This document shows positions 1 to 12,205 of a stretch of 64,000 bases of DNA, one piece after another (the first letter of the stretch is position 1; every line of letters begins with the position of its first letter). This DNA comes from Bdellovibrionales bacterium GWB1_55_8. GTDB lineage: Bacteria; Bdellovibrionota; UBA1018. The notes beneath the pieces are model-generated. The model worked only from the letters and a program-made list of their open reading frames with translations, was not told the DNA's origin and searched no databases. Where the stretch lies: positions 24,683 to 88,682 of the forward strand of contig MEPR01000035.1 in the NCBI GenBank assembly GCA_001769835.1. The letters run 5' to 3'. A program made the position numbers and the translations under genes.

Positions 1-389
1 TCGTTCTGATCAACGATCTTCACGACGCAAATCTGCCCGAACTCCGCCACCTGCGCTCCCTCTGCCTGGAGATTTTGCGGCTCGCCAGCCTCGCCAAGAG
101 ATCGATCGTTTTCCTTCCCATTCAAAACCTCGATGAGGTTCACCACAGAATGACGTTCCTGCAGGCCCAGTCTGTCATCGTGCCATTTGTCGAGGATGGA
201 ATTTTGCCGTTCCTTGAGTCATGGTTGATCTCCGAGCCGAAAGCCTCAGTCCGTATCCTGTTCAATTCGGCACAAGGGAAGTCTTCCGTGGAAACGGTCA
301 CCACAATTCTGCGCGCCCAAGACAGTTTGATAACCTACGACGACGACCTCTCCAACATCACCAGAGCAGCGGCGGGAGCACTCGCTTGA
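1..389 (+). CDS. hypothetical protein, 5' end lies outside the window; frame +3 is open from base 3 to the TGA at 387-389
   Basis: Read by eye: no stop codon in frame 3 from the window start to the TGA at 387-389. The track's ORF 75..389 is the internal TTG-started part of this frame. No recognisable family motif. Confidence 0.35.
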   Translation, partial: VLINDLHDANLPELRHLRSLCLEILRLASLAKRSIVFLPIQNLDEVHHRMTFLQAQSVIVPFVEDGILPFLESWLISEPKASVRILFNSAQGKSSVETVTTILRAQDSLITYDDDLSNITRAAAGALA

Positions 390-790
390 CTGAGCTGATC
401 GATTCCGCGCAATGCAACCGTGACGCTTTCAACGCCTATCGATCCATTCTCAAGAAAGCAGGACGCTTGTCCTGCCGCATTCTCAGCGATTCCATGCACC
501 CGCTCATCAGTGCCGGCGAAACAGTGAACATCGCCCCCGTTCCGGAACTTGGCGAACTGCGACGGTTCGATATCATCGTATTTCTGTACGGAGACCGGTT
601 GTATTGCCATTATGTCTGGTCGATGTGGGAAAATCCGGTACAGATCCAGACACGTTCCCTGAAGGAATGCCGGTCGGATGATTTGCCCACCTTGCCTGAC
701 TTCCTTCTTGGAAAAGTCATAGATCAGAAGATCGGGATCCGGACGCGTATCTGGATAATTCTGCTGAACTGGTTCAAAGGAACGGCGTGA
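386..790 (+). CDS. S24/S26-like (LexA/signal-peptidase fold) peptidase, about 134 aa from TTG 386
   Basis: Motif SDSMHPLISAGETVNI followed by FDIIVF...GDRLY resembles the GDSMxP...GDxVxV...GDIVVF pattern of S24/S26 peptidases. A TTG start at 386-388 overlaps the upstream TGA (TTGA coupling). The track ORF 221..790 starts further upstream, but that N-terminal part carries no motif. Confidence 0.4.
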   Translation: MTELIDSAQCNRDAFNAYRSILKKAGRLSCRILSDSMHPLISAGETVNIAPVPELGELRRFDIIVFLYGDRLYCHYVWSMWENPVQIQTRSLKECRSDDLPTLPDFLLGKVIDQKIGIRTRIWIILLNWFKGTA

Positions 791-1808
791 ACTCGTCCAG
801 CGCCCCCATCTTTGAAACAAGATGGTGGGCAAGCGATTCGACGGCGGGCGCGCAGTATCGGACCTGCCCGGAAAAGCACCTCTTCGTCCTGAAGCTTCTC
901 ACGTCGCGCAGGAAAAGCGGATCCATGGTGTAGCGGTCCCACTCAGACCTGACTTCCTGAAAAAGACCGGGACCATATTCACGTCCCGTCGCCGAAATCG
1001 AGTAATAATGGGTAAACGACAAAGGAAGGTTCAACACCGGCCGCTCAGGAGTTTGCTGACCGAAAGACTTTCCGCCTTTGCTCAAGAACTGGTGGGTCAC
1101 GAAACTGTCCGAATAAAAAAACCGTCGCGGGTTGAATTCAAAAAACGCGCTAGCCCCGAGTTTACGATTCTGAACTTCCGGCCAGGGCACATAATCGACA
1201 TCGTCACCGAAGACATCCAACGCGGCACGGGTCATCTCAAAGTGAAGACGACTTCTCGCGTCCCGTTCCGTCGAATTCTTGCCAAAGACATGCGCAGCCA
1301 GAAAAGTGACATGATATCTCACCGTCTCGTCCGCAAAGAACCGCTTCACAGCATGAAGTCGTGCCGAAAACTGACTTAACGAACATTGCTTGTCATCTAT
1401 AACACTCACCACTAAATAGACGTCGTTCACTTGTTTCGCATCAAGCGGGCTCACCGAATGCACGCGGTAATACGCAACTGACGCGTCCCATGCCGCTGGA
1501 ACCGTCCACGCCAGGTCAGCATGAAGAAAAACATGGCAATCGCGATCCGGAGGGGCTGGATACCGAAGAAAGAAGTCCAGAAGTCCGAGAGCCCCGTCCC
1601 GAACCAGGAGCGGGCGGTAGGCGCTTAGAACGTCCGCACTTTTTATCTGGTGAAGGAAAACGGGCTTCAGGACCGAGAAATACTCTTCGGAATGAGGGTA
1701 AAGGAACTTTGCGGTATTCCTTCCGGAACGGCTGTTGGCGCTCCACTCTGACCTGATCGCGAATCGACTCAGCTCCCCGACGGAGCGGCTCAGGCTGATC
1801 AGCTCCAT
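774..1808 (-). CDS. hypothetical protein (344 aa from internal Met; the track ORF extends to 1904 but would overlap the upstream GT gene by 74 nt)
   Basis: Long minus-strand ORF in series with the GT4 gene. An ATG at 1808-1806 leaves a 22-nt spacer after the GT4 stop. No confident family assignment; a possible IDD motif hints at a GT-A-like fold, but only weakly. Confidence 0.4.
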   Translation of the reverse strand: MELISLSRSVGELSRFAIRSEWSANSRSGRNTAKFLYPHSEEYFSVLKPVFLHQIKSADVLSAYRPLLVRDGALGLLDFFLRYPAPPDRDCHVFLHADLAWTVPAAWDASVAYYRVHSVSPLDAKQVNDVYLVVSVIDDKQCSLSQFSARLHAVKRFFADETVRYHVTFLAAHVFGKNSTERDARSRLHFEMTRAALDVFGDDVDYVPWPEVQNRKLGASAFFEFNPRRFFYSDSFVTHQFLSKGGKSFGQQTPERPVLNLPLSFTHYYSISATGREYGPGLFQEVRSEWDRYTMDPLFLRDVRSFRTKRCFSGQVRYCAPAVESLAHHLVSKMGALDEFTPFL

Positions 1809-1830
1809 GATCTCACGGGTTCGATCCCGC

Positions 1831-3120
1831 TCAGAAATACGAGTCATACAATTCCCGATAAAGGTTGGAGTATCCTTCGGCCGCCCGGAACGGAGCTTTC
1901 GCATTCAAGCGATACGCACGCGCCAGCTGTTCAAATGCCTGGGTGAAACCTGAAAACGGTTCCCTTGAATCGCTCCCATTCCGCACCATATCGCCGATTT
2001 TTCGCCCCACTGATTCACACGAGCAAAACTCCCGCGCGCCCTCAGAAACGTTCCGCCGATCAGCATCCGTGCGATTCCGAGAAGCCATTGACGCCATTCC
2101 TTTGATGCAGGCTTTCAGCTCGGGTTGAATGCGGCGCCCCGATATCTGTACAGGGATGTGATCCACCGATCCCGGCCTCTGGCCACCGAAGGAGGAATAC
2201 CCCCCCCAATCTGACAGCAGCAACTGTTGTCCACAGCACCATGCCTCCGCGGGAGCCATTCCGAAGTCCTCGTCATTATGAGTGCTGAAGCTTACGAAGA
2301 CATCGGCCATCGCATAAAGATCCGCCAGACGCGCAGCCTCAAGATCTCCCAAATATTGAACGCGTTCACGATCCGGATCGGCCACCAATGTGTCGCGCAG
2401 CTCAATCAAATCAGCGGCGAGCAAACCGGTTAAAGGAGTCTTCCCGATATACGGGATTCCAAGATCGTCTATCGGCCCCGCGAGCCAGAGTCGTGCTTGA
2501 GGGTTGAATCGAAGATAGGCCGCAAAGGCCCTCATCAGAAGCAGCACGTTTTTTTGTAAACTCAGCCTGCCTGAGTAAAGCAAAATGGTTTCCGAAGTGG
2601 AAATGCCCTGCTCCTTCCGTAACCCTGAATAGGCGCCTTCCCGAAACGAAAACAAGGAGGAGTCCACCGGGAACGGAACCCAGGCAACCCGTCCAGAGAT
2701 GAACGACCGGAGCAGCTTTTGCTGCTTTTCTGATGCACCGACAAACACCGGCTGAGCGCTGCGAAACAACTCCTCCATCCGAAGCCACTCATTCGGATTG
2801 ATTGTGAAATCACCAAAAGCATGGATCACGAGTCTTGGCCAGGATTTCAGCTTTCTCGCAAGTAATTCGAACAGAACGGCCGGATGCGGCTTGTGGTCGA
2901 CAATTGCGATCAGGTCGGGCTTGAACGAGACAATGCCCTCCGCAAGCTGGTCCAAATCCAAGAAAGAAGCGGACTCTTCCATGTAAAACTGCCGGATCTC
3001 CGCTGAGGGGAACTCCAGTGAATAACTGTTGATCAGGTTTTGAGTGATGGATCGACAGCTCACCCAGTCCGAAGGGCGCTGCCGGCAAATGAGAGCGATT
3101 TTGCGCATAAACTTGTGCAA
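1831..3120 (-). CDS. glycosyltransferase, GT4 (GT-B fold, RfaG/WcaL-like)
   Basis: C-terminal GT1/GT4 signature: ILLYSGRLSLQKNVLLLMRAF ... DVFVSFSTHNDEDFGMAPAEAWCCG (E-x7-E motif). Confidence 0.7.
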   Translation of the reverse strand: MHKFMRKIALICRQRPSDWVSCRSITQNLINSYSLEFPSAEIRQFYMEESASFLDLDQLAEGIVSFKPDLIAIVDHKPHPAVLFELLARKLKSWPRLVIHAFGDFTINPNEWLRMEELFRSAQPVFVGASEKQQKLLRSFISGRVAWVPFPVDSSLFSFREGAYSGLRKEQGISTSETILLYSGRLSLQKNVLLLMRAFAAYLRFNPQARLWLAGPIDDLGIPYIGKTPLTGLLAADLIELRDTLVADPDRERVQYLGDLEAARLADLYAMADVFVSFSTHNDEDFGMAPAEAWCCGQQLLLSDWGGYSSFGGQRPGSVDHIPVQISGRRIQPELKACIKGMASMASRNRTDADRRNVSEGAREFCSCESVGRKIGDMVRNGSDSREPFSGFTQAFEQLARAYRLNAKAPFRAAEGYSNLYRELYDSYF

Positions 3121-3143
3121 TCGTAGTCTAATTGCAAATACTT

Positions 3144-3171
3144 TGGCAATGAAGTAACTTTCGCTTAAAAT
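3144..3171 (+). promoter_or_regulatory. sigma70-like promoter for the PqqD-led operon: TTGGCA-16 nt-TAAAAT
   Basis: TTGGCA at 3144-3149 and TAAAAT at 3166-3171, then GAGGG SD at 3172-3176 and ATG at 3181. Sits in the 60-bp gap between divergent GT4 and pqqD-like genes. Confidence 0.4.
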
Positions 3172-3180
3172 GAGGGCTCT

Positions 3181-3504
3181 ATGAGCGATACCACGCCTTT
3201 GAAAACCGGTTCCATTGAATCTGCCATTATTCCGGGAGCACGCCTGGAAATGAGCAAGGACCTCGTTGCGCGGAAAAACCAGGATGGAACCGTGATCGTC
3301 ATGAAGCTGGATGACAGCGCCGTTTTTTACAAGATTGACGGCATCGCCGCAGCGGTCTGGACCGAACTGGGGAACAAGCCGACCTTATCTGAGCTAGTAT
3401 CCAAATTCTCGGAACAGCATCCGAACCATCGCGATGAGATCGGTCGCGATGTGACAAACCTGATTACAGCGCTGCTCGGAAAACAGCTGATTGAAAAAAC
3501 CTGA
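3181..3504 (+). CDS. PqqD-family protein (RiPP recognition element-type peptide chaperone)
   Basis: 107 aa. VARKNQDGTVIVMKLDDSAVFYKIDGIAAAVWTELGNKPTLSELVSKFSEQ...EIGRDVTNLITALLGKQLIE is the canonical PqqD/RRE pattern (beta-strands then a wH-like helix, ending in a protein-binding helix). Confidence 0.7.
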   Translation: MSDTTPLKTGSIESAIIPGARLEMSKDLVARKNQDGTVIVMKLDDSAVFYKIDGIAAAVWTELGNKPTLSELVSKFSEQHPNHRDEIGRDVTNLITALLGKQLIEKT

Positions 3505-3519
3505 CGGAATGGTGAAATT

Positions 3520-3975
3520 ATGAGCGATACCGACAAGACCAAGAAAACAGAACAAAAAGACTACTACTTCGGCGGCATCAAGGAATTCAACCTTGAGCAG
3601 ATCGAGACGGAAGTACTGAACGAAAGCATTTACCTCGACGTTTTTGCCGGATCGGATCTCCGTCTGAAGAAAAATGTTTTGCCGATCGAGGACGCATTGT
3701 CGAAGGTCCTGCAAATCGAGGGAGTTCGCTTTGAATGGAACCCTGAAGCGCCCGGGGCGCCGAAAAACGGAACGCCGCAAGCAGGGCTGATCGCGCAGGA
3801 CGTGGCTGCAGTGATGCCGGAACTTGTCCGGGCCGACCGCGATACCGGAATGCTCGCGGTTGAGTACAGCAAGCTCGTCAGCTATCTTGTCGAGGCGGTC
3901 AAAGATCTGAACGCCATCGTACTCAAACAGGAAGCCCGGATCCGGGCACTGGAAAAGCCTGATTCGCGCCACTGA
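3520..3975 (+). CDS. small protein made of a 44-aa N-terminal peptide plus a C-terminal intramolecular chaperone auto-processing domain (Peptidase S74 / tail-fibre CIMCD-like)
   Basis: Residues 45-150 read SDLRLKKNVLPIEDALSKVLQIEGVRFEWNP...AGLIAQDVAAVMPELV...LAVEYSKLVSYLVEAVKDLNAIVLKQEARIRALE. This matches the S74/CIMCD consensus (SDxRLK...Y.W...GfIAQEv..v.PE.V.......l.V.Y..L..lliEAiKeL...i..L) and includes the Ser-x4-Lys catalytic dyad (S45/K50). The gene sits 15 nt after pqqD and 8 nt before an rSAM gene. Confidence 0.7.
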   Translation: MSDTDKTKKTEQKDYYFGGIKEFNLEQIETEVLNESIYLDVFAGSDLRLKKNVLPIEDALSKVLQIEGVRFEWNPEAPGAPKNGTPQAGLIAQDVAAVMPELVRADRDTGMLAVEYSKLVSYLVEAVKDLNAIVLKQEARIRALEKPDSRH

Positions 3976-3983
3976 CGCAACCC

Positions 3984-5072
3984 ATGGAGTCGCGATCTGC
4001 CGAGTCGACTAGAAAAAAACTACTGGTAAAGGGTTTATCCCCGAATTTCTGCCTGGTCCCGTTCACGACCTTGACCATTGAACCCGACGGCCACCTCGGC
4101 TGCTGCAGGCAGAAAGGGTCTCAGTTTTCGATAGGCAATCTTCATACGCAATCGCTGGCGGAAGCATGGAATGGCGATCCACTGAGAAGGTGGAGACGCG
4201 AGTTCCTAGAAGGCTCCCCGCAGACGTGCCGTAGCGAGATACGCCACTCCTCCTGCAATCTGTGTCCTGATTACAACTCGCTCCTTGACGCGATCGATCC
4301 ACGGGAAATTCAGCCCGGACCACCGCTCCGGCTCGGACTCAATCTCAATGGCAAGTGCAACCTGCGCTGCCGAATGTGTGTAGTCTGGAAGCAACCCAAC
4401 GGCATCTTCGATCGGCTTGACCTTCAGAGTTCCCTGGAGCCCCACATAAAGACGCTTCGCGAAGTCGAACTTCACTCAGGCGAGCCCTTTATCCAAAAGG
4501 ATACCTATCGTCTGATCAGCTGGATCAGCGATCATAATCCCGAATGCCTCTGGACGATCACCACCAACGCCCACTGGCGGCTTTCTGGGAGAATCGAAGA
4601 ACATCTGGATAAGATCCGATTCAAGAACCTGATCATAAGCATCGACAGCCTGGATGCGGCCACTTACGCAAAAATACGACAAGGCGGACGCCTCGGAACG
4701 GTCATGAAGAACGTCAACCTCCTGCGGGACTACAACTCCAGGAGAGTCGCCCGCGGCCAAGGCACAATGAACATCAGGGCAAACTTCCTTATTCAACAGG
4801 ATAACTGGTCTGAGCTGCCGCAGATCTTCGACTTTGAGAGGAAAACAGGAATCGATTGCTTCCGCACGTTTCTTTACGAACCGAGGAGGTTTTCGCTCCT
4901 CGACCTTCCCTCATCCGAACGGGAGGCGATTCTTACGTTCTATGAAACGGCGCTATCGCCTCAGCAAATTCGAGGCTCATTTCGAATATTGCTGCCCCTG
5001 ATCGACAGTCTTCCCAGAATCGATCAAGTGCTTCACTGGGAAAGGATGCAGCAGTCACTCAAGGGGAATTGA
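3984..5072 (+). CDS. radical SAM protein with N-terminal SPASM/twitch-like Cys-rich domain (paralog 1)
   Basis: N-terminus NFCLVPFTTLTIEPDGHLGCC...SLAEAWNGDPLRRWRREFLEG...C...CNLC is SPASM-like. The core motif CNLRCRMC (CxxxCxxC) follows at about residue 125. Shares the SGEPFIQKDTYRLI block with paralog 2. Confidence 0.75.
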   Translation: MESRSAESTRKKLLVKGLSPNFCLVPFTTLTIEPDGHLGCCRQKGSQFSIGNLHTQSLAEAWNGDPLRRWRREFLEGSPQTCRSEIRHSSCNLCPDYNSLLDAIDPREIQPGPPLRLGLNLNGKCNLRCRMCVVWKQPNGIFDRLDLQSSLEPHIKTLREVELHSGEPFIQKDTYRLISWISDHNPECLWTITTNAHWRLSGRIEEHLDKIRFKNLIISIDSLDAATYAKIRQGGRLGTVMKNVNLLRDYNSRRVARGQGTMNIRANFLIQQDNWSELPQIFDFERKTGIDCFRTFLYEPRRFSLLDLPSSEREAILTFYETALSPQQIRGSFRILLPLIDSLPRIDQVLHWERMQQSLKGN

Positions 5073-5835
5073 ACAGCTCGTACGCGAGCAATGCCTTCGG
5101 AACCGCCCCGTCGAATACAATGCGATTCTGATGTAAAACGATCGCCCGATTGCAGTGTTGAAGAATCAGCTCTCTCGAGTGACTGACAAAAATAAGCGCT
5201 TTCGATGCATGAATCACCTGCTGCATGCGCGCCATCATTTTTGCCTGAAAGAATTGATCGGCGTTGTCGTACGCCTCATCGAGAATCAGGAGATCACCGC
5301 TCCTCGCGGTCAAGACGGCCAGACAGAGCCGGCTCTTCATTCCCTGGCTGTAAGTTTCGTAAGGAGCATCCAAGAACGCACCGAGCTCGGAAAAAGCGAT
5401 CGCCTCCTCAACAACCTGCTGAACGCCAGCGCCGATCTCGTTCGGGTAGAGGAGCCGAACCAGCAGCTCCGCATTTTCCCGCCCTGTAAGTTCCGGAACA
5501 ATGCCAGCGGTGGTATTGAATATCGCGCGACAGACCCCGTTCACCTGAATGCTCCCGGTATTCGGGCGATACATGCCTGCGATACAGCGGCACAACGTGG
5601 TTTTTCCGCTTCCGTTCACCCCCAGAATTCCCAGGCGGTCTCCTGATCGGATCTGAAGATTGATGTCATTCAGGACGTGAAGCATTCTTCGCGGCTTCAA
5701 GAGTAATCGCACTGGATCGCTCACCGCGTCCACGAAGAGCTGCCGAAGGGATCCGTTGGCATAATGCCGGAGCCGAAAAGCCAGATTTACGCCCGAAAGA
5801 GTCGCTATATTGTCAGAGCTGGTGATAGAATTCAT
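5059..5835 (-). CDS. ABC transporter ATP-binding protein (Wzt/TagH/KpsT-like, ABC-2 type exporter ATPase)
   Basis: Walker A GVNGSGKTTL, signature YSQGMKSRL, Walker B LLILDEA. Overall resemblance to polysaccharide/teichoic-acid exporter ATPases. Overlaps the permease gene by 23 nt. Confidence 0.8.
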   Translation of the reverse strand: MNSITSSDNIATLSGVNLAFRLRHYANGSLRQLFVDAVSDPVRLLLKPRRMLHVLNDINLQIRSGDRLGILGVNGSGKTTLCRCIAGMYRPNTGSIQVNGVCRAIFNTTAGIVPELTGRENAELLVRLLYPNEIGAGVQQVVEEAIAFSELGAFLDAPYETYSQGMKSRLCLAVLTARSGDLLILDEAYDNADQFFQAKMMARMQQVIHASKALIFVSHSRELILQHCNRAIVLHQNRIVFDGAVPKALLAYELFNSP

Positions 5836-6565
5836 TTTTCATTCGCTTCCAATACGTGACAGCGGCCACCCCAAAGAGCGCGGCGCAGACAGTCGCCTTT
5901 GCCAACGATCCGATGAAACCTTCCGAGCTGAAGCTGTAGATGCAGATTCTCACCGGCTCGATGAGAACATAGATCGGGTTAATGCCAATCAACCACTGAT
6001 ACTGATCAGGGACAAATTCCTTCGGGTAAAAGATCGGAGTCACGAAGAAAAGAACGCCGATCATGAAATGCACCACATACCGAACATCCCTGTAAAAAAC
6101 GTTCAACATGGATAAAAACCAGAGCAAACCTCCTGTTCCAGCAAGAAGAGGCAACAAGGCGAGCGGAAGGAACCAGAGCCCCGTTTTTTGCACATCCGTG
6201 ATCAGAACAGTCGGGACCAGAATGATCGAGAAGGCGGCCACAAAATTGACGGCATTATCCAGCAAGGACGAGAAAACAAGCAGATAGGGCTTCACCTTCA
6301 ACGCGAGAAACACCTCGCGTGCCCCGACGGGAACCGCGATCCCCATTTCGAGCGAGGAAACAACGAATACCCAGGGCAGCAAACCACCCAACAGAAACAG
6401 TCCGTAATTCGGGATTCCGATTCGCAGTATTTCCTTGAAGGCCAGTGCTTGAGCTGCGTAGAGCACGATGGGACTGAGAATCACCCATACAAAGCCCGCA
6501 AAGGTCCGCCGATAGCGGGCCCGCATCTGCGCTTTGGTCATGAAAACAAGCAGGCTCCAGTTCAT
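5813..6565 (-). CDS. ABC-2 type transporter permease (Wzm/TagG/KpsM-like)
   Basis: 250 aa, six predicted TM segments, typical ABC-2 N-terminus (KAQMRARYRRTFAGFVWVILSP). Confidence 0.75.
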   Translation of the reverse strand: MNWSLLVFMTKAQMRARYRRTFAGFVWVILSPIVLYAAQALAFKEILRIGIPNYGLFLLGGLLPWVFVVSSLEMGIAVPVGAREVFLALKVKPYLLVFSSLLDNAVNFVAAFSIILVPTVLITDVQKTGLWFLPLALLPLLAGTGGLLWFLSMLNVFYRDVRYVVHFMIGVLFFVTPIFYPKEFVPDQYQWLIGINPIYVLIEPVRICIYSFSSEGFIGSLAKATVCAALFGVAAVTYWKRMKNEFYHQL

Positions 6566-6590
6566 TTATCGAGCTCCTCCAATGAGCTTC

Positions 6591-7382
6591 TCAGGAAACC
6601 ACCAGTATGTAATCGCATTCACTGCAAACGGAATGAGCGGCCCTCTTGCCTTCTCTCAGCCGGTTACGAAAGTCGATGTACTTCTGCGATGCCCAGATAT
6701 CTCCAAAGTGCTGTTCCTGGACATTACCCATGACATTCCGCTGAAGGAAATCCTGAAAACAGGGAAGGACGTTCCCCTTGACCGTAATCACTGACGTGGA
6801 AATCGGAACAAAACACGGTCTGTCAAGCGGTGGCGTCACCTTGAAAGAACCGAAGCCCTGAACAAGCCCCCCCCTGTTCGTGAAAATCAGGTCTTGATGG
6901 GAGTAATAGATGATCTTGCCTTTATCGGATTCCGACAAGCGCGCATAAGCATCCTCAAATTCCGCCAAGTCCGAACCTATATGCCGCGTGACGGTGAACT
7001 TATGAACGCCGAGGTCCAGGAGTTCCCGGAGCTTCTCCTGGTTCAACAGAGTTCCATTCGTGAAAATCTCGATCCTGCTTCGCGGAAGAATATCACGCGT
7101 GAGCGCCACAAATCGGGACAGGGAAGGCGACAACAACGGTTCATTGAAGAAATGATACGAGATGCGGCCTTCGTAATTCAGGTCGGAAAGCTGCTTCAGG
7201 ATTCCAAGAAAGAGCGTGTCTTCCATCGCGCCGCGCTCCGGCCTCTCGAAACTGGAATTCGGGCAATAAGGGCACCTCCTATTGCAGTCACTTCCAATCT
7301 CGATCTCGACCGCGAGTGGCGGCTTGAGTCCTTTAGGGTTCATCTTCCTCGCATTATCCGACATTTTCCGTGATTTCGCCAT
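6591..7382 (-). CDS. radical SAM protein with C-terminal twitch/SPASM-like domain (conventional order)
   Basis: EIEIGSDCNRRCPYCPNS (CxxxCxxC) near the N-terminus. C-terminal Cys pattern RPC...LPC...GNVQEQHFGDIWASQKY...CSEC. The start is taken at ATG 7382 (ATG 7364 also possible); the track's extension to 7604 has no support and would run into the divergent gene. Confidence 0.7.
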   Translation of the reverse strand: MAKSRKMSDNARKMNPKGLKPPLAVEIEIGSDCNRRCPYCPNSSFERPERGAMEDTLFLGILKQLSDLNYEGRISYHFFNEPLLSPSLSRFVALTRDILPRSRIEIFTNGTLLNQEKLRELLDLGVHKFTVTRHIGSDLAEFEDAYARLSESDKGKIIYYSHQDLIFTNRGGLVQGFGSFKVTPPLDRPCFVPISTSVITVKGNVLPCFQDFLQRNVMGNVQEQHFGDIWASQKYIDFRNRLREGKRAAHSVCSECDYILVVS

Positions 7383-7453
7383 GGACTGCTCACAAATGGC
7401 ACCTTTACTGAATCGGACTGGACGGGCACCCGGCACACCCATAGAATCTCTGC

Positions 7454-8551
7454 GTGAAACCTCAGCTGACCCCGGGAGAAATCCTCGAAATCTACAGGAA
7501 GAAGGGACTTCCGGAAAACTTCTGCCCGGTGCCTTTTTCCACTCTGCTTTTTGAGGCGAACGGGAATGTCTGCATGTGCCGCAGAAAGGGTTCGGAGTTC
7601 GCAATCGGCAACATCCAGGAGCAGGACTACCTTGAAATCTGGAACGGGGAAAAGCTGAAGAACATACGCGCCGAGTTTTTGACCGGCAGGCTTCGCACCT
7701 GCGCCGTTGAAGTCGAGCGCGACCATTGTAATCTCGATGCCAACAATGCCGACTCCCTTCCTTTCATCGAACTGGCGGTCGAGCAGCAGAGGCATCCTCT
7801 CCGCATAAGTCCCAACTTCAACGGACACTGCAATGTTCAGTGTGAGATGTGTCACATCTGGCGCTATCCGGACGGCTTGTATGACAAAATCGGTTTCTGG
7901 CGAACACTCGAGAACGACATCCTGCCGCACTTGCGCGAAATCGACACATTCTCAGGAGAGCCGTTCATCCAGAAAGACACCTACCGCCTCATCGAAATGG
8001 CCGCGCACGCGAATCCAAACATTTTCTGGAGCTTCACCACAAACGCGAACTGGCGCCTGAATGACACTATTCGGCGCTATCTCGACATGATCCAGGTGAA
8101 AACATTCAACTTGAGCATTGATAGCGTCGATCCGGCCGTCTATGCCTCGATTCGCCGCGGAGGAAACCTGGACAAGGTCCTCATCAACTTCGACCTGCTC
8201 CAGCTTTACGAACAGGAAAGAATCGCGGCTGGAAAGAGCGCACTCGGACTTACCATCCATTCGGTTATTCAGCGATCGAACTGGAAAGGCATTCCGGCGC
8301 TCCTCACACTGAGAAAGCAGAGGAATGCGCGAATTCATCTGAAATGCCTTTTTGAGCCTCCGGAACTCTCGCTCATCGGGATGACGGCGGCGGAAAAGCG
8401 GCAAATTCTGGCATACCTGCTTGAATCGCTTGGCCGCGAGGAACTGATGATGACTGCTGCGCTCTGGAAAGTGCTGTTGAAGGATATTCCCAAATCAGAC
8501 AGGCTGGAATTAATTCTGGAGTTTCAGAAGAAGACGGGAATCTTTCGCTGA
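7454..8551 (+). CDS. radical SAM protein with N-terminal SPASM/twitch-like domain (paralog 2)
   Basis: GTG start. NFCPVPFSTLLFEANGNVCMC...IGNIQEQDYLEIWNGEKLKNIRAEFLTG...C...C, then CNVQCEMC (CxxxCxxC). The SGEPFIQKDTYRLI block is identical to paralog 1. Confidence 0.75.
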   Translation: MKPQLTPGEILEIYRKKGLPENFCPVPFSTLLFEANGNVCMCRRKGSEFAIGNIQEQDYLEIWNGEKLKNIRAEFLTGRLRTCAVEVERDHCNLDANNADSLPFIELAVEQQRHPLRISPNFNGHCNVQCEMCHIWRYPDGLYDKIGFWRTLENDILPHLREIDTFSGEPFIQKDTYRLIEMAAHANPNIFWSFTTNANWRLNDTIRRYLDMIQVKTFNLSIDSVDPAVYASIRRGGNLDKVLINFDLLQLYEQERIAAGKSALGLTIHSVIQRSNWKGIPALLTLRKQRNARIHLKCLFEPPELSLIGMTAAEKRQILAYLLESLGREELMMTAALWKVLLKDIPKSDRLELILEFQKKTGIFR

Positions 8552-8592
8552 TTGCAGATGTGCTCGCGTCGGCATTCTGATATTTTTTCCAC

Positions 8593-9957
8593 ATGCCACG
8601 ACAATTCCTCGAGCGCCGCACCCTCGCAATCGTGTCGGCCCTGGGTCTGCTCAGCGCTCTCTCACTCAGCCTGACTCTGCGCCCTCAGCCTGGCGGCGTG
8701 GGATCTTGCCACGAAATTCGTGCCGCGCGATATTTTGACAGCACAACCAAAAAGGTCCGCAGCCCTGCTAAAATTCTTGTCGAAGGCGGAAAAATTCAAC
8801 GCCACATCAGTACGCCACGATCTGAGCCTTGCAAAGTGATCGACCTACCGGACGCAACGCTATTGCCCGGCCTGATTGACACCCACACGCACTTATTCAT
8901 GCGCGATTCAGCCTATTACCGCGGTTTTTCAACGGAGCTTCTTTCCGTGGTCAAACACAGTGACGCCGAACGGTTGGCTTGGGGGAAGGAGAGCGCCCAA
9001 CAGCTTTTGTTTGCGGGAATCACGACGGTTCGCGATCTGGGTAATTCGGGATTATTCCTGGACGCGCAGTTCGAAAAATTCCTGAACAGCAATGGCGGGT
9101 TCGCGAGCCCCAGGATCATCTATTCGGGACCCGGTATCAGCGGAAGTGGCGGTCAGTTTCCGGAAAACACCCCCTTGGCCATCGTCCAGAAGGAGTACTT
9201 TCCCCTCCTGGAACCTGGCTTGGCCGCCGGAATAGTCGCCCGCTTAAACGAGAACGGCGCCACCTGGGTGAAAGTATTCGCTGACGGTGATCCAAATCCG
9301 GAAAAGATGGAACAAATCGTTCTCGAGTCAATTGTGCGCGAGGCGCGGAGGCTCGGAAAAAAAATCGCTGCGCACAGTACGGAAGACGCAACGGCCTTGC
9401 ATGCCGTTGCCGCGGGAGTCGACAGCATCGAGCATGGGTTTGGAATTTCGACCTCCACCCTGTCTCAAATGGCGAAAAAGGGTATTTTTCTGGTACCAAC
9501 CGATTTCAGTCGCAGGGTTTGTGACATCATTCGCATGAAAAATCCGGATCCTCAATACCAGGACCCCGGGCGGTACCTCCAAGAACGCGGAATACGCCTC
9601 AAGGAGGCGGTTCGACTGGGTGTTCCGGTTGCGTTCGGTTCCGATGCCTACTCTGATATGAGCGCCGAAGGCCTGAACATGGGCCAGGCAGCGAAAGAGG
9701 GCCTTTACGCTTACTGGGAAGAGGGCATGAATGCCCCGGACGTGCTTCACGCCGCAACATTGGGTTCCGCCGAACTTCTCGGGATGGCGGATCAACTCGG
9801 GACGCTGGAGGCCGGCTCGAGCGCGGACATCATCGCGATCAAAGGAGATCCATTGGAGGATCTCCGAAACCTTGATCAGGTGATCTTTGTCATGAAAGAA
9901 GGCACCGTGTTCACAAGTCCGGAAACAGTTTCAAGCGTGGCAAGCCATGGCCAATAA
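8593..9957 (+). CDS. amidohydrolase-family metal-dependent hydrolase, predicted secreted
   Basis: Hydrophobic N-terminus LAIVSALGLLSALSLS. Metal-binding start GLIDTHTHL, later HSTEDAT...AAGVDSIEHG and VAFGSDAYS motifs typical of the amidohydrolase TIM-barrel superfamily. The stop overlaps the next start (ATGGCCAATAA). Confidence 0.7.
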   Translation: MPRQFLERRTLAIVSALGLLSALSLSLTLRPQPGGVGSCHEIRAARYFDSTTKKVRSPAKILVEGGKIQRHISTPRSEPCKVIDLPDATLLPGLIDTHTHLFMRDSAYYRGFSTELLSVVKHSDAERLAWGKESAQQLLFAGITTVRDLGNSGLFLDAQFEKFLNSNGGFASPRIIYSGPGISGSGGQFPENTPLAIVQKEYFPLLEPGLAAGIVARLNENGATWVKVFADGDPNPEKMEQIVLESIVREARRLGKKIAAHSTEDATALHAVAAGVDSIEHGFGISTSTLSQMAKKGIFLVPTDFSRRVCDIIRMKNPDPQYQDPGRYLQERGIRLKEAVRLGVPVAFGSDAYSDMSAEGLNMGQAAKEGLYAYWEEGMNAPDVLHAATLGSAELLGMADQLGTLEAGSSADIIAIKGDPLEDLRNLDQVIFVMKEGTVFTSPETVSSVASHGQ

Positions 9958-11275
9958 CGACCGCCAGGACAATGTCACCCGGAAGCTCAGCCAGGTCTCT
10001 CCGTGCTTTTGCCTGGCCAAGTGGCTTCAGGTCACCATCGATATCGTCCATGGGACGACTCACAGCTGTCATCACCCTGCGCGCCACCCCATCCCGCTTC
10101 AGGAGCTCCAATCGAACTTGCATGCCCTTCACAATACGAACTTCAAAAAGCAGCAGCGAAAAGCCATGCTCGAGGGGCATCGCCCTGCCGAGTGCGTTTA
10201 TTGCTGGGACATTGAAGACGCAGGTTCTGCCTATTCCGATCGGATCGTGAAATCCTCCGACCCCTGGGCTCTGCCTTTTCTTGATGAAATAAAATCTCTT
10301 CCCTGGGATGCGGATGTCCTCCCAACCTACCTCGAAGTGATGCTCGACGATCGCTGCAATCTCTCATGCGCCTACTGCATGGCCGACATCAGCAGTTCCA
10401 TTGCCGCCGAGATGGCGAAATTCGGTCCTTACCCAGTCAGCGACAAGGGGCATCGGATGCCCACCCATCCCGTGCCGGACGACCCCAATCCCTACGTCGC
10501 CGCGTTTTGGAAATGGATCCCTGCGGTTTTACCGAATTTGAAAGTACTGAGGGTCACAGGGGGTGAGCCGCTTTTAAGCGGACGCCTTCAGGAATTGCTG
10601 ACGATCCTGCGTCAGGACAAGCACCCGGATCTCACGTTGATCATCAACTCCCATCTGAGCGTGGGTTCTCAAGCCCTCGAGTTATTTTTCGATCAGGTTG
10701 AAGACCTGTTGGAAACCCAAGCGATCGGCCACTTTGAACTCTACACCAGCCTGGATGCCGCTGGCCCCCCCGCTGAATACATTCGCTGCGGAATGGAGTA
10801 CCGAAAGGTCATGAACACCATTGCGACGGCAGCCAGACGTTTTCCAGAAGCAAAAGTGGTTGCCATGTGCGCCTTCAATCTGCTCTCTCTTTCCTCATTC
10901 GGATTGCTCCTTGCGGAAATATGCGCGCTGAAGCGGGAGCTACCGAACGTCTTTCTGGATACGGCATACCTGCGGAACCCACGGTACCTCTCCTCCAATC
11001 TGGCGACTGCCGGTCTGAAACGATCCGCGGCTGAAGCGATGGCCGGGTTCATCGGGAGCCCCCGGTCGTATACGAACCATGAGATCGCGAAAATCGAGAA
11101 CTCGCTGCGGTGGATGCAAAGCGAGCCCGGATCGACGGAGCTTGCGCGCGGAAGGCGGGATTTCCTGCTGTTCGTCTCCGAGTACGACCGCCGAAAGAAC
11201 AAGTCGTTCTTAGGTGTATTTCCGGAATACAGGGAGTTTTACCGGGAGTGCAAAAGGTCAGTTCTCACGACCTAA
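9947..11275 (+). CDS. radical SAM protein with N-terminal twitch/SPASM-like domain (paralog 3, 442 aa)
   Basis: N-terminal Cys cluster SPCFCLAKW...HSCHH...ECVYCWDIE. Core motif DDRCNLSCAYC (CxxxCxxC). Translationally coupled to the amidohydrolase gene. Confidence 0.75.
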   Translation: MANNDRQDNVTRKLSQVSPCFCLAKWLQVTIDIVHGTTHSCHHPARHPIPLQELQSNLHALHNTNFKKQQRKAMLEGHRPAECVYCWDIEDAGSAYSDRIVKSSDPWALPFLDEIKSLPWDADVLPTYLEVMLDDRCNLSCAYCMADISSSIAAEMAKFGPYPVSDKGHRMPTHPVPDDPNPYVAAFWKWIPAVLPNLKVLRVTGGEPLLSGRLQELLTILRQDKHPDLTLIINSHLSVGSQALELFFDQVEDLLETQAIGHFELYTSLDAAGPPAEYIRCGMEYRKVMNTIATAARRFPEAKVVAMCAFNLLSLSSFGLLLAEICALKRELPNVFLDTAYLRNPRYLSSNLATAGLKRSAAEAMAGFIGSPRSYTNHEIAKIENSLRWMQSEPGSTELARGRRDFLLFVSEYDRRKNKSFLGVFPEYREFYRECKRSVLTT

Positions 11276-11392: not shown

Positions 11393-12205
11393 ATGAAAAA
11401 GAAACTACCTGGACTTGTCAATAATGCGGGTTTTTCGCTCGTTGAAGTCATGGTCGCCGCCGGGGTTTTGGGCGTCGTGACGATGGGATCGATGCAGTTG
11501 ATGAACACCATGAGCGATGGTCAAAGACGAATGTGGCAGATGCTGAATCTCACTGACGCCATTGCCGAAGTCCAGAACGCTGTGCGCAATCAAGAGACCT
11601 GCCTAGCGACTCTGAACCCCGCTGGTCCTCCGATACTCATCTCTACAACTGGTGGAGCCAGCAACTTCACAGTCCTGCGAAGGGCGGACGGCACGGCTTT
11701 AGTCACGGCGCCTACCGAATACGGAACGGGCGCAGGGCGAATTCGCGTGGACGTTTTCCAACTTACGAGCACCGGTCCAAACAACGTCGGACAAGCAAAA
11801 ACCGCCTCTGTCGTACTCCGCTATAGAAAGCGAGAGGGCGCGGTTTGGGGCGCGCAGTTAGTGAGAGACATCCCAATTAAGGTGATTCCGACTGCCGCCA
11901 ATCGAGTATCGCGTTGCTACTTATCGGATATGTCGGGGCCGGCATGCGACGCTTTGGGCGGCGACTTCGATGAACTCACCGGCCGCTGCACCACCATCGA
12001 CCTCTCCTTGCAGGCAGGCGCAGACCTGAGACTTCCGGCCGACGGCGAGATTTGCCGAGGAGGCGTCTGCCAGACTGTCTTCAATTCAAATCAGACCTGC
12101 CCATGGGGCTCCATGAACGCAAGATGTGTTAACGTCGTGGGCATTTCCCCAGGAGGTACCCTCATGTGTGGAGCCGCGCCGGCAGGAACAGCGTGCACCC
12201 CCTGA
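11393..12205 (+). CDS. type IV pilin-like protein (prepilin-type N-terminal cleavage/methylation domain) with a Cys-rich C-terminal region
   Basis: MKKKLPGLVNNAG|FSLVEVMVAAGVLGVV is the class-III signal with G-1/F+1/E+5. The mature protein is about 257 aa. The last 95 aa contain 11 Cys together with many Asp/Glu/Gly. Confidence 0.7.
   Translation: MKKKLPGLVNNAGFSLVEVMVAAGVLGVVTMGSMQLMNTMSDGQRRMWQMLNLTDAIAEVQNAVRNQETCLATLNPAGPPILISTTGGASNFTVLRRADGTALVTAPTEYGTGAGRIRVDVFQLTSTGPNNVGQAKTASVVLRYRKREGAVWGAQLVRDIPIKVIPTAANRVSRCYLSDMSGPACDALGGDFDELTGRCTTIDLSLQAGADLRLPADGEICRGGVCQTVFNSNQTCPWGSMNARCVNVVGISPGGTLMCGAAPAGTACTP

What the first reader, a model, noticed from the sequence alone, without database searches (positions are those of the whole stretch)
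3520..3975. Predicted autocleavage at Ser45 (Ser-x4-Lys dyad) would release a 44-aa aromatic/acidic N-terminal peptide
In tail-spike CIMCDs the serine of the SDxRxK motif cleaves its own N-terminal peptide bond after trimerisation. Here the motif is GSDLRLK (S45, K50). The product would be MSDTDKTKKTEQKDYYFGGIKEFNLEQIETEVLNESIYLDVFAG, with the S45 codon at 3652-3654. This peptide has no Cys but carries an aromatic cluster (YYF ... F ... Y ... F) and a GG pair. Those are candidate sites for rSAM-catalysed C-C/C-O crosslinks of the cyclophane or streptide type rather than thioethers. A trimerising follower domain would also present three copies of the peptide to the maturases.
Basis: inference. 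Interest (0 to 1): 0.8.

Follow-up and report, generated by a model that had tools for sequence, protein, structure and literature searches.

The report
Self-cleaving peptide precursor in predatory bacteria
A small protein of predatory bacteria joins a very conserved 30-residue peptide to a phage-type self-cutting domain, and sits beside (in relatives is fused to) a peptide-binding chaperone and radical-SAM enzymes, which suggests an undescribed way of making a modified peptide.

Summary
ORF 3520-3975 (+) encodes 151 aa. Residues 45-104 match Peptidase_S74 (E 7.6e-17), starting exactly at Ser45. Ser45, Asp46 and Lys50 are invariant in 86 homologues, and the modelled fold matches the MyRF and phage autocleavage domains.

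The RiPP interpretation is partly supported.
- The family occurs only in Bdellovibrionota (58 genome loci).
- It stays with a PqqD chaperone (24/28 complete loci), radical-SAM genes (27/28) and a GT4 glycosyltransferase (26/28), although gene order is shuffled.
- In 10 loci PqqD is fused in frame to the protein.
- An AlphaFold model of a natural fusion gives residues equivalent to 20-24 as a β-strand at pLDDT about 80. The stand-alone model gives about 50 and no strand there. This fits leader-like docking.

Residues 15-44 are the most conserved part of the protein, whereas 1-14 are a variable linker. So the released peptide is not a hypervariable core. It looks more like a cofactor or signal precursor.

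The proposed cyclophane or streptide chemistry has no support, because the enzymes belong to an uncharacterised N-terminal-twitch family. Related clusters carry sugar-tailoring genes. I found no literature on this architecture. Cleavage and modification remain untested.

The parts
3520..3975 (+). Gene for the 151-aa peptide-S74 protein (stop codon included). It is the candidate self-cleaving precursor.
   Evidence: ORF listing and sequence. It is 100% identical to P0001 from Bdellovibrionales bacterium GWB1_55_8.
3520..3561 (+). Residues 1-14: variable, Lys/Asp-rich N-terminus. It corresponds to the end of the linker in PqqD-fused relatives.
   Evidence: Mean column entropy 3.05 bits. It aligns with the variable linker of the fusion proteins.
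3562..3606 (+). Residues 15-29 (YYFGGIKEFNLEQIE): conserved segment proposed to bind PqqD, i.e. leader-like.
   Evidence: Y15, F17, G18, L25, I28 and E29 are 87-100% conserved. In the model of fusion P0024 the equivalent segment reaches pLDDT 77-83 with a β-strand at IKEFN. In the stand-alone model it is coil at about 46-53.
3607..3651 (+). Residues 30-44 (TEVLNESIYLDVFAG): nearly invariant segment just before the cut site, proposed as the core. It would end in a free Gly44 carboxylate after cleavage.
   Evidence: Y38, V41, F42 and G44 are invariant; L33, S36, L39, D40 and A43 are at least 95% conserved. Synonymous codons are saturated at these positions. pLDDT is below 55 in both models.
3652..3669 (+). 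SDLRLK motif: Ser45 (TCG 3652-3654) and Lys50 (AAG 3667-3669), the predicted Ser-Lys catalytic dyad. The scissile bond is G44|S45.
   Evidence: S45, D46 and K50 are invariant in 86 sequences and R48 is 78/86. The motif aligns with the cleavage motif of T5 pb1, MyRF (S587/K592) and GA-1 (PMC8326128).
3652..3831 (+). Residues 45-104: the Pfam Peptidase_S74 (intramolecular chaperone autocleavage) match.
   Evidence: PF13884, 61.8 bits, E 7.6e-17. AF2 pLDDT is 85-98 from residue 51 onward (block means; the block 41-50 is 70). Foldseek finds 7dc3 at TM 0.61-0.66, plus 3gud and 3gw6.
3865..3954 (+). Residues 116-145: long C-terminal helix, the predicted trimerising coiled coil of the ICA domain.
   Evidence: Helix 116-145 in the AF2 model at block-mean pLDDT 91-98, falling to 82 for residues 141-150. 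It aligns with the MyRF C-terminal helix. In MyRF this coiled coil drives trimerisation (PMC8326128).
3181..3504 (+). PqqD-family peptide chaperone (RRE), 107 aa. It lies in the same reading frame as the S74 gene, separated by TGA 3502-3504 and four codons.
   Evidence: PF05402, 35 bits. The frame relationship is shown. The homologous domain in fusion P0024 matches the lasso B1 RRE 5v1v (TM 0.84) and PqqD 5sxy.
3984..5072 (+). Radical-SAM enzyme A with an N-terminal SPASM/twitch domain, starting 9 nt after the S74 gene.
   Evidence: PF13186 at residues 23-92 and PF04055, with the motif CNLRCRMC. NF033640 scores 104 bits, below its cut-off of 170. An orthologue is present in 35 of 58 loci and usually lies directly downstream of S74.
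5059..5835 (-). ABC transporter ATPase.
   Evidence: PF00005. An ABC transporter gene is present in 21/28 complete loci.
5813..6565 (-). ABC-2 type permease.
   Evidence: PF01061. It is conserved alongside the ATPase.
6591..7382 (-). Short radical-SAM/SPASM enzyme B. The likely start is ATG 7382; the listed ORF runs on to 7604.
   Evidence: PF04055 and a C-terminal PF13186. Start candidates are listed. An orthologue is present in 20 loci.
7454..8551 (+). Radical-SAM enzyme C, an N-terminal-twitch paralogue of A.
   Evidence: PF13186 at the N-terminus and PF04055. NF033640 scores 93 bits, below its cut-off.
8593..9957 (+). Amidohydrolase-family metallohydrolase.
   Evidence: PF01979, E 1.6e-32. 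It is present in 10/28 complete loci.
9947..11275 (+). Radical-SAM enzyme D, a true member of N_Twi_rSAM.
   Evidence: NF033640 scores 255.6 bits against a cut-off of 170. It has no relative in the PDB by sequence.
1831..3120 (-). GT4 glycosyltransferase.
   Evidence: PF00534 and PF13692. It is present in 26/28 complete loci.
774..1904 (-). Conserved protein of unknown family, next to the GT4 gene.
   Evidence: No Pfam or PDB match, either alone or as a profile. It is present in 17/28 complete loci.
386..790 (+). Small SipW/ER-type signal-peptidase-like serine peptidase. The likely start is TTG 386; the longest ORF starts at 221.
   Evidence: All 17 aligned members hit TIGR02228 (best E 4.6e-10), with invariant Ser (SDSMxP) and His. 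It is present in 16/28 complete loci.

Best explanation
The 151-aa protein is the ribosomal precursor of a lineage-specific modified peptide of Bdellovibrionota. Its C-terminal 'follower' is a phage-type S74/ICA self-cleaving domain.

Proposed order of events:
1. Residues 15-29 bind the PqqD chaperone. PqqD is a separate gene here and is fused in cis in many relatives. This step is predicted.
2. PqqD hands the nearly invariant segment 30-44 to one or more of the cluster's radical-SAM enzymes, and probably to the GT4 glycosyltransferase. This step is inferred.
3. The S74 domain trimerises through its C-terminal helix. The Ser45/Lys50 dyad then cuts the G44-S45 bond without any external protease, freeing the peptide with a Gly44 carboxylate. 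This step is inferred from homology.
4. The small SipW-like peptidase may trim the leader, or the PqqD-linker part in fused relatives, and the ABC-2 transporter may export the product. This step is inferred.

What is shown: domain identity, an invariant dyad, conserved gene neighbourhood, natural PqqD fusions, protein-level selection on the peptide, and the absence of any other candidate substrate gene in the cluster. What is not shown: cleavage, binding, any modification, and the chemistry.

The strong conservation of the peptide points to a cofactor, signal or structural product rather than a fast-evolving antibiotic.
For: - S74 domain at residues 45-104, E 7.6e-17, starting at Ser45. The profile aligns the dyad with T5 pb1, MyRF and GA-1. 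The AF2 model matches the MyRF ICA domain 7dc3 at TM 0.61-0.66, and also 3gud and 3gw6.
- S45, D46 and K50 are invariant in 86 homologues.
- S74 self-cleavage works in this phylum (Bd3182, S782A mutant; PMC10769870). In MyRF it needs only ICA trimerisation, not a folded upstream stalk (PMC8326128).
- Residues 15-44 are the best-conserved part of the protein: 0.74 bits against 1.86 for the S74 domain. Synonymous codons are saturated there.
- The motif occurs in only 41 clusters among 1.84 billion representative proteins, all 67-293 aa long.
- All 58 genome loci are in Bdellovibrionota. In 28 complete loci PqqD is present in 24, a radical-SAM gene in 27, GT4 in 26 and ABC genes in 21. Across all 58 loci PqqD is fused in 10 and adjacent in 16. 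Gene order is shuffled.
- In the fusion model, IKEFN is a β-strand with pLDDT 77-83, while the segment 131-150 stays at 46-51. The PqqD part resembles the leader-bound lasso B1 RRE 5v1v at TM 0.84.
- S74 proteins reached independently through radical-SAM A orthologues carry the same motif.
- No intergenic gap in the window cluster exceeds about 120 bp, so there is no room for another precursor gene.
Against: - Nothing biochemical is known: cleavage, PqqD binding and modification are all untested.
- The docking claim rests on pLDDT and secondary-structure summaries only. No coordinates were available, and no multimer model could be run.
- Two of five neighbourhoods of radical-SAM A orthologues have no S74 or PqqD gene within 10 kb.
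- Related clusters are rich in sugar-pathway genes: DegT aminotransferase, carbamoyltransferase, Zn-dependent alcohol dehydrogenase, and a rSAM-DegT fusion. Twitch-type radical-SAM enzymes often act on small molecules (background knowledge). Some or all of these enzymes may therefore never touch the peptide.
- An invariant 'core' is unusual for RiPPs.
- In phage endosialidase, cleavage depends on a folded triple β-helix upstream (PMC8326128), and that is absent here.
- Part of the apparent invariance of YLDVFAGSD among the genome loci comes from using that pattern in the scan.
Confidence: 0.5

Rival explanations
1. The protein is an adaptor or hub, not a substrate. It is a trimeric organiser in which residues 15-29 are a docking tag that holds three PqqD domains (in trans here, in cis in the fusions) on an S74 trimer. 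The radical-SAM, DegT, carbamoyltransferase and GT enzymes build a sugar-derived product or glycan, which the ABC-2 transporter exports. The peptide itself is not modified. Cleavage, if it occurs, only releases or regulates PqqD.
For: - Related clusters carry typical sugar-tailoring genes, including a radical-SAM-DegT fusion.
- GT4 and ABC-2 transporter genes are conserved.
- Radical-SAM A orthologues occur without S74 or PqqD within 10 kb in 2 of 5 cases.
- The extreme conservation of residues 15-44 fits a protein-protein interface.
Against: - By established knowledge, PqqD/RRE domains bind precursor peptides and deliver them to maturases. The fold of the fused PqqD is closest to leader-bound lasso B1.
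- This model does not explain why residues 30-44 are nearly invariant yet stay disordered in both models.
- It does not explain why a self-cleaving domain with an invariant dyad is kept.
- No other peptide gene is present in the cluster.
Confidence: 0.22
2. The S74 domain does not cleave. It serves only as a trimerisation module, the protein stays full-length, and the dyad is conserved for structural reasons or for very slow, regulated cleavage.
For: - In phage endosialidase, cleavage needs a correctly folded triple β-helix upstream, including Arg897 (PMC8326128). Nothing of that kind precedes Ser45 here.
- The upstream region has low model confidence.
Against: - Ser45, Asp46 and Lys50 are invariant, and Arg48 is 91% conserved, across deep divergence with saturated synonymous sites.
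- The model is closest to the MyRF ICA domain. MyRF cleavage is independent of upstream folding.
- A Bdellovibrio S74 domain has been shown to self-cleave.
Confidence: 0.2
3. The gene is a phage or fibre remnant: a truncated leftover of a tail-fibre or MAT-fibre gene (C-terminal chaperone only) that lies near radical-SAM genes by chance.
For: - The S74 domain is otherwise typical of phage fibres. It matches 1103 phage records at under 60% identity, and every hit examined is the C-terminus of a long fibre protein.
- Bdellovibrio genomes carry many S74-ended fibres.
Against: - The family is conserved as a 140-170-aa protein, or as a PqqD fusion, in 58 species with the same neighbours.
- The N-terminal 30-mer is unique to this family and is under strong purifying selection.
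- No phage genes are nearby.
Confidence: 0.02

Closest known systems
[quoted passage not shown]
   Same: It is the best structural match (TM 0.61-0.66, rmsd 2.8 Å over 116 columns; 27% identity). Both have the S-D-x-R-x-K dyad motif and a C-terminal coiled-coil helix. In MyRF, trimerisation-gated self-cleavage releases a non-fibre N-terminal cargo and does not depend on the upstream fold.
   Different: MyRF is a eukaryotic membrane transcription factor of more than 1000 aa, with a β-helical stalk upstream and a transmembrane segment downstream. Here only 44 residues precede the cut, and the protein is cytoplasmic and bacterial.
Phage tail-spike and tail-fibre C-terminal intramolecular chaperone domains (endosialidase K1F 3GW6, GA-1 3GUD, T5 pb1 6F45) and the Bdellovibrio MAT fibres (Bd3182)
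   Same: They share the Pfam family PF13884 and the catalytic Ser/Lys positions. The domain lies at the C-terminus and is discarded after cutting.
   Different: Those domains fold and release long trimeric β-helical fibres (hundreds to about 1800 aa), which are secreted or part of the virion. Here there is no fibre, no signal peptide, and a unique conserved 30-mer in its place.
RRE-dependent radical-SAM peptide pathways with conserved precursors (PQQ: PqqA/PqqD/PqqE; mycofactocin: MftA/MftB/MftC plus peptidase MftE and glycosyltransferase MftF)
   Same: They combine a stand-alone PqqD-type chaperone, radical-SAM enzyme(s), a peptidase and a glycosyltransferase. Their precursor sequence is strongly conserved rather than hypervariable. 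The window facts are; the PQQ and mycofactocin facts are background knowledge.
   Different: Those precursors are 20-30-aa free peptides processed by separate proteases. Their maturases have C-terminal SPASM domains. None has a self-cleaving domain or an RRE fused to the precursor.
RiPP precursors with follower peptides, or fused to pathway proteins (bottromycin follower; borosin OphMA-type enzyme-core fusions)
   Same: The core lies upstream of a C-terminal extension that must be removed. A pathway protein (here PqqD, in relatives) is joined to the substrate on one chain (background knowledge).
   Different: In those systems the follower is removed by separate hydrolases, and no S74/ICA domain is involved. 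Searches of the held library for S74 or intramolecular chaperone together with RiPP, radical SAM or PqqD returned no paper.

Membership tests
Peptidase S74 / intramolecular chaperone autocleavage (CIMCD, ICA) domain | Sequence match to PF13884 above the curated threshold | tested here: met
   61.8 bits against a cut-off of 22, E 7.6e-17, residues 45-104 covering model positions 1-58 of 58.
Peptidase S74 / intramolecular chaperone autocleavage (CIMCD, ICA) domain | Catalytic Ser-x4-Lys dyad (S-D-x-x-x-K) at the start of the domain | tested here: met
   S45, D46 and K50 are invariant in 86 homologues. They align with the cleavage motifs of T5 pb1, MyRF and GA-1.
Peptidase S74 / intramolecular chaperone autocleavage (CIMCD, ICA) domain | ICA fold with a long C-terminal helix that forms the trimeric coiled coil | tested here: met
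   AF2 block-mean pLDDT is 85-98 from residue 51 onward, with helix 116-145. Foldseek finds 7dc3 (E 3e-6, TM 0.61-0.66), 3gud and 3gw6. The trimer itself was not modelled.
Peptidase S74 / intramolecular chaperone autocleavage (CIMCD, ICA) domain | Sits at the C-terminus of a long trimeric β-helical fibre or spike that it helps to fold | tested here: not met
   Only 44 residues precede Ser45. They have low model confidence and no β-helix. The 30-mer is never found in long proteins.
Peptidase S74 / intramolecular chaperone autocleavage (CIMCD, ICA) domain | Trimerisation-dependent self-cleavage at the Ser | not testable with these tools
   This needs SDS-PAGE/MS of wild type against S45A and K50A.
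RRE-dependent RiPP precursor peptide | Small gene next to an RRE (PqqD) and a maturase, co-conserved with them | tested here: met
   The operon PqqD-S74-rSAM A has 15-nt and 8-nt gaps. PqqD is fused in 10 and adjacent in 16 of 58 loci, and a radical-SAM gene is adjacent in 28.
RRE-dependent RiPP precursor peptide | A recognition sequence that binds the RRE as an added β-strand | tested here: inconclusive
   In the fusion model IKEFN becomes a strand at pLDDT 77-83, against coil at about 50 without PqqD. No coordinates were available to confirm the contact.
RRE-dependent RiPP precursor peptide | The core peptide is post-translationally modified | not testable with these tools
   This requires co-expression and mass spectrometry.
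   The WgkB model NF050035 scores 29.9 and 34.3 bits against a cut-off of 650. All peptide-maturase models are far below threshold. The SPASM/twitch domain is N-terminal in rSAM A, C and D.
N_Twi_rSAM (NF033640), radical SAM with an N-terminal twitch domain | Score above the NCBIfam cut-off of 170 bits | tested here: met
   rSAM D (9947-11275) scores 255.6 bits. rSAM A (104 bits) and rSAM C (93 bits) are related but below the cut-off. I found no functional description of the family.
PqqD / RRE peptide chaperone (for ORF 3181-3504) | PF05402 match and a winged-helix RRE fold | tested here: met
   35 bits against a cut-off of 23.4. The homologous domain of fusion P0024 matches TbiB1 5v1v (TM 0.84), 6jx3 and PqqD 5sxy.

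The most novel reading that the evidence does not exclude
This would be a new class of ribosomal peptide pathway in which a phage-derived S74/ICA domain acts as a built-in, trimerisation-gated 'self-removing follower'. The RRE can be fused to its own substrate. A family of uncharacterised N-terminal-twitch radical-SAM enzymes and sugar-tailoring enzymes would convert a nearly invariant 15-30-residue core (…EVLNESIYLDVFAG-COOH) into a glycosylated, radical-modified cofactor, signal or predation factor specific to predatory Bdellovibrionota.
Probability: 0.35. Interest if true: 0.85.

Novelty: new variant of a known kind. Interest (0 to 1): 0.7.

Why it matters
If this reading is right, it adds a third use for the S74/ICA self-cleaving domain, after phage and bacterial fibres and the eukaryotic transcription factor MyRF. 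It would also give RiPP biology a protease-free, oligomerisation-gated way to release a peptide, plus the first case of a recognition element fused to its own substrate.

It would provide a defined substrate for an uncharacterised radical-SAM family (NF033640 relatives). It would also point to a conserved, so far unnoticed metabolite of predatory bacteria.

The system is small (151 aa plus 107 aa plus the enzymes) and can be tested directly by heterologous expression.

Tried and rejected
- **Other copies in the window.** A six-frame phmmer search found no second copy of the peptide or of an S74 domain.
- **Literature.** Searches for S74 or intramolecular chaperone with radical SAM, RiPP or PqqD, for BMS_3130, for N-terminal twitch radical SAM, for PqqD in Bdellovibrionota, and for an autoproteolytic follower found nothing relevant.
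- **Curated families.** NCBIfam has no model for the S74 protein.
- **Radical-SAM D and the unknown 376-aa protein.** Neither has a PDB relative by sequence. The 376-aa protein also has no Pfam match, even as a profile.
- **Phage origin.** All phage hits are below 60% identity and lie at the C-termini of long fibres. Rejected.
- **Generic stalk module.** The conserved 30-mer occurs only in this family. Rejected.
- **DNA-level conservation.** Synonymous sites are saturated. Rejected.
- **Thioether (sactipeptide or ranthipeptide) chemistry.** No Cys is conserved in the peptide. Rejected.
- **Programmed read-through of the in-frame TGA between PqqD and S74.** Noted, but there is no evidence for it. 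The closest unfused relative has the two genes in different frames.
- **Technical limits.** Foldseek against AFDB was unavailable. The Ser-Lys geometry could not be measured because model coordinates are not returned.
Full report
**1. The observation**

The window carries an ORF at 3520..3975 (+) of 151 aa. Ser45 is TCG at 3652-3654 and Lys50 is AAG at 3667-3669. The 44-mer has no Cys, six aromatic and ten acidic residues.

Pfam places a Peptidase_S74 domain on residues 45-104 (61.8 bits against a cut-off of 22, E 7.6e-17), with model position 1 on Ser45. A profile of the family hits solved S74/ICA domains: phage T5 pb1 6f45 (E 1.6e-15), MyRF 7dc3 (5e-13), a tail fibre 8jov and GA-1 3gud. Ser45 and Lys50 fall on the catalytic positions.

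An AlphaFold2 model built on 86 homologues is confident for the domain, with block-mean pLDDT of 85-98 from residue 51 onward. It has a long C-terminal helix at 116-145. Foldseek returns the MyRF ICA domain (TM 0.61-0.66, rmsd 2.8 Å) and then 3gud and 3gw6.

**2. The family**

The protein is identical to a hypothetical protein of Bdellovibrionales bacterium GWB1_55_8. It has 136 detectable homologues.

These come in two architectures. One is short (about 140-170 aa), as here. The other is about 240-265 aa with a PqqD domain (PF05402) fused to the N-terminus. Ten genome loci show PqqD and S74 in one uninterrupted reading frame, so the fusions are real.

Conservation is uneven in an informative way.
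- Residues 1-14 are variable (3.05 bits mean column entropy) and align with the end of the linker in the fusions.
- Residues 15-44 are the most conserved stretch of the whole protein (0.74 bits).
- The S74 domain is less conserved (1.86 bits).

L25, E29, Y38, V41, F42, G44, S45, D46 and K50 are invariant in 86 sequences. At the DNA level these invariant residues use all synonymous codons: six for L25, four for G44 and five for S45. Selection therefore acts on the protein.

Part of this invariance among the genome loci is circular, because the scan used YLDVFAGSD as one of its patterns. However, three S74 proteins reached independently through radical-SAM orthologues carry the same motif.

An index-free HMMER search of 1.84 billion representative proteins with residues 13-54 found only 41 clusters. 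All were 67-293 aa long, which means only these two architectures. The 30-mer is therefore not a generic fibre stalk.

**3. Genomic context**

In the window the gene lies 15 nt after a PqqD gene (3181-3504) and 8 nt before a radical-SAM gene (3984-5072) whose SPASM/twitch domain is N-terminal.

The surrounding cluster runs from about 386 to 11275. It also holds:
- a small SipW/ER-type signal-peptidase-like protein;
- a conserved unknown protein of 376 aa;
- a GT4 glycosyltransferase;
- an ABC-2 transporter pair;
- a short radical-SAM/SPASM enzyme;
- a second N-twitch radical-SAM enzyme;
- an amidohydrolase;
- a true member of NCBIfam NF033640, N_Twi_rSAM (255.6 bits).

No intergenic gap in the cluster is longer than about 120 bp, so there is no room for another precursor gene.

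A scan of one genome per species found 58 loci, all in Bdellovibrionota: Bdellovibrionales, Pseudobdellovibrionaceae, Bacteriovoracaceae and Halobacteriovorax. Gene order is heavily shuffled, yet the gene set is kept. In the 28 loci with at least 8 kb on both sides the counts are:

| Gene | Loci (of 28) |
|---|---|
| any radical-SAM gene | 27 |
| GT4 | 26 |
| PqqD | 24 |
| ABC genes | 21 |
| unknown 376-aa protein | 17 |
| SipW-like peptidase | 16 |
| amidohydrolase | 10 |

Across all 58 loci PqqD is fused in 10 and immediately adjacent in 16, and a radical-SAM gene is adjacent in 28. The tightest partner of the S74 protein is therefore PqqD.

**4. Does the peptide meet PqqD?**

I could not run a multimer model, so I modelled a natural fusion instead (P0024, 63-sequence alignment). 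The PqqD part and the S74 part are both confident.

The segment equivalent to window residues 9-28 has pLDDT 77-83, and IKEFN (window 20-24) is a β-strand followed by a short helix. The segment equivalent to residues 29-48 stays at 46-51.

In the stand-alone model the same IKEFN segment is coil at about 46-53. A DSSP strand needs a partner, and none formed without PqqD. I infer that the partner is the PqqD sheet. I could not verify this from coordinates.

The PqqD part of the model matches leader-bound lasso-peptide B1 RREs (5v1v TM 0.84; 6jx3), TigE and PqqD itself. This is the pattern expected for a leader-like recognition sequence (residues 15-29) followed by a flexible core (residues 30-44).

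**5. Will it cut?**

By homology, yes.
- The dyad and the accompanying Asp and Arg are conserved.
- The fold is closest to MyRF. There, S587 and K592 are essential, cleavage occurs only in the trimer, the C-terminal coiled coil drives trimerisation, and cleavage does not depend on the upstream stalk (PMC8326128).
- S74 self-cleavage has been shown in this phylum for the fibre Bd3182 and is blocked by S782A (PMC10769870).

The caveat is that in phage endosialidase an upstream triple β-helix residue takes part in the reaction. No such structure exists here.

**6.

- The chemistry is unsupported. The WgkB-type model scores about 30 bits against a cut-off of 650, and no peptide-maturase family is reached. 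Three of the four enzymes have a permuted, N-terminal auxiliary-cluster domain with no characterised relative.
- The 'GG pair' and 'YYF' are only partly conserved.
- In the fused relatives, cleavage releases PqqD, linker and peptide together. A further protease is then needed, and the SipW-like peptidase is a candidate.
- Clusters reached through orthologues of radical-SAM A add several sugar-pathway genes: a DegT aminotransferase, a NodU/CmcH carbamoyltransferase, a Zn-dependent dehydrogenase, B12- and MiaB-type radical-SAM enzymes, and even a radical-SAM-DegT fusion. Two of those five neighbourhoods lack S74 and PqqD within 10 kb. Sugar tailoring, or sugar chemistry unrelated to the peptide, must therefore be considered. 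The core contains a conserved N-E-S sequon, which I record only as a lead.

**7. Explanation and rivals**

The best explanation (confidence about 0.5) is that this is the precursor of a conserved, RRE- and radical-SAM-dependent, probably glycosylated peptide product, released by its own S74 follower.

The rivals are:
- a trimeric adaptor that merely organises PqqD for a sugar-centred pathway (about 0.22);
- a non-cleaving trimerisation module (about 0.2, which overlaps with the others);
- a fibre remnant (about 0.02, contradicted by synteny, uniqueness and selection).

**8. Novelty**

S74/ICA domains, PqqD chaperones and radical-SAM peptide maturation are each known. Their combination is not in the searchable literature and has no NCBIfam model. 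That combination is a self-cleaving phage-type domain acting as the follower of a 30-residue conserved peptide, with the RRE sometimes fused to the substrate.

I rate it a new variant of a known kind. Interest is 0.7, and would be higher if cleavage and modification are confirmed.

Noticed in passing
window 3181-3975: PqqD and the S74 gene are in the same reading frame, separated only by TGA (3502-3504) and four sense codons before the ATG at 3520. Read-through would recreate the fused architecture seen in relatives. The nearest unfused relative (L001) has the two genes in different frames, so this is probably a simple gene split.
   Followed up: partly
window 774-1904 (-): A conserved 376-aa protein always lies beside the GT4 gene (17/28 complete loci). 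It has no Pfam or PDB sequence match, even as an 18-sequence profile. In related loci the gene in this position has a weak Glycos_transf_1 hit, so it may be a very divergent glycosyltransferase partner.
   Followed up: partly
window 386-790 (+) (longest ORF from 221): A miniature (~125-135 aa) SipW/ER-type signal-peptidase-like protein with an invariant Ser (SDSMxP), an invariant His (CHY) and a TRSLK motif, ending in a hydrophobic tail. It is co-conserved with the cluster in 16/28 complete loci. The annotated ATG start at 221 is probably too far upstream.
   Followed up: partly
L064 6340-8289; L061 and L062 7172-10011 and 13909-21104; L063 4441-6192 and 12962-14098: Related clusters add a DegT/EryC1 aminotransferase, a NodU/CmcH carbamoyltransferase, a Zn-dependent alcohol dehydrogenase, three B12-binding and two MiaB-like radical-SAM genes, and a GT2. 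L064 encodes a radical-SAM/SPASM domain fused to a DegT aminotransferase (649 aa). This gene set recalls amino-sugar or aminocyclitol pathways.
   Followed up: no
L059 and L065: Orthologues of radical-SAM A (46-48% identity) sit with GT4, carbamoyltransferase and other radical-SAM genes, but no S74 or PqqD gene lies within 10 kb. Either the cluster is larger than 20 kb or the enzymes can work without the S74 protein.
   Followed up: partly
window 3619-3627 (residues N34-E35-S36): The nearly invariant core contains an N-x-S sequon (N in 74/86, S in 82/86 sequences), next to the conserved Y38 and D40. These are possible glycosylation sites, given the conserved GT4.
   Followed up: no
window 11393-13605 (+): A type IV pilin-like gene with an N-terminal methylation motif (PF07963), followed by a 479-aa protein without a Pfam match, lies directly after the cluster. 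Pilin-like genes are near the S74 gene in only 8 of 58 loci.
   Followed up: no
window 6591-7604 (-) and 7454-8551 (+): The listed ORF of radical-SAM B starts at a TTG that overlaps the divergently transcribed radical-SAM C gene. The likely true start is ATG 7382, which leaves a divergent promoter region of about 70 bp.
   Followed up: partly
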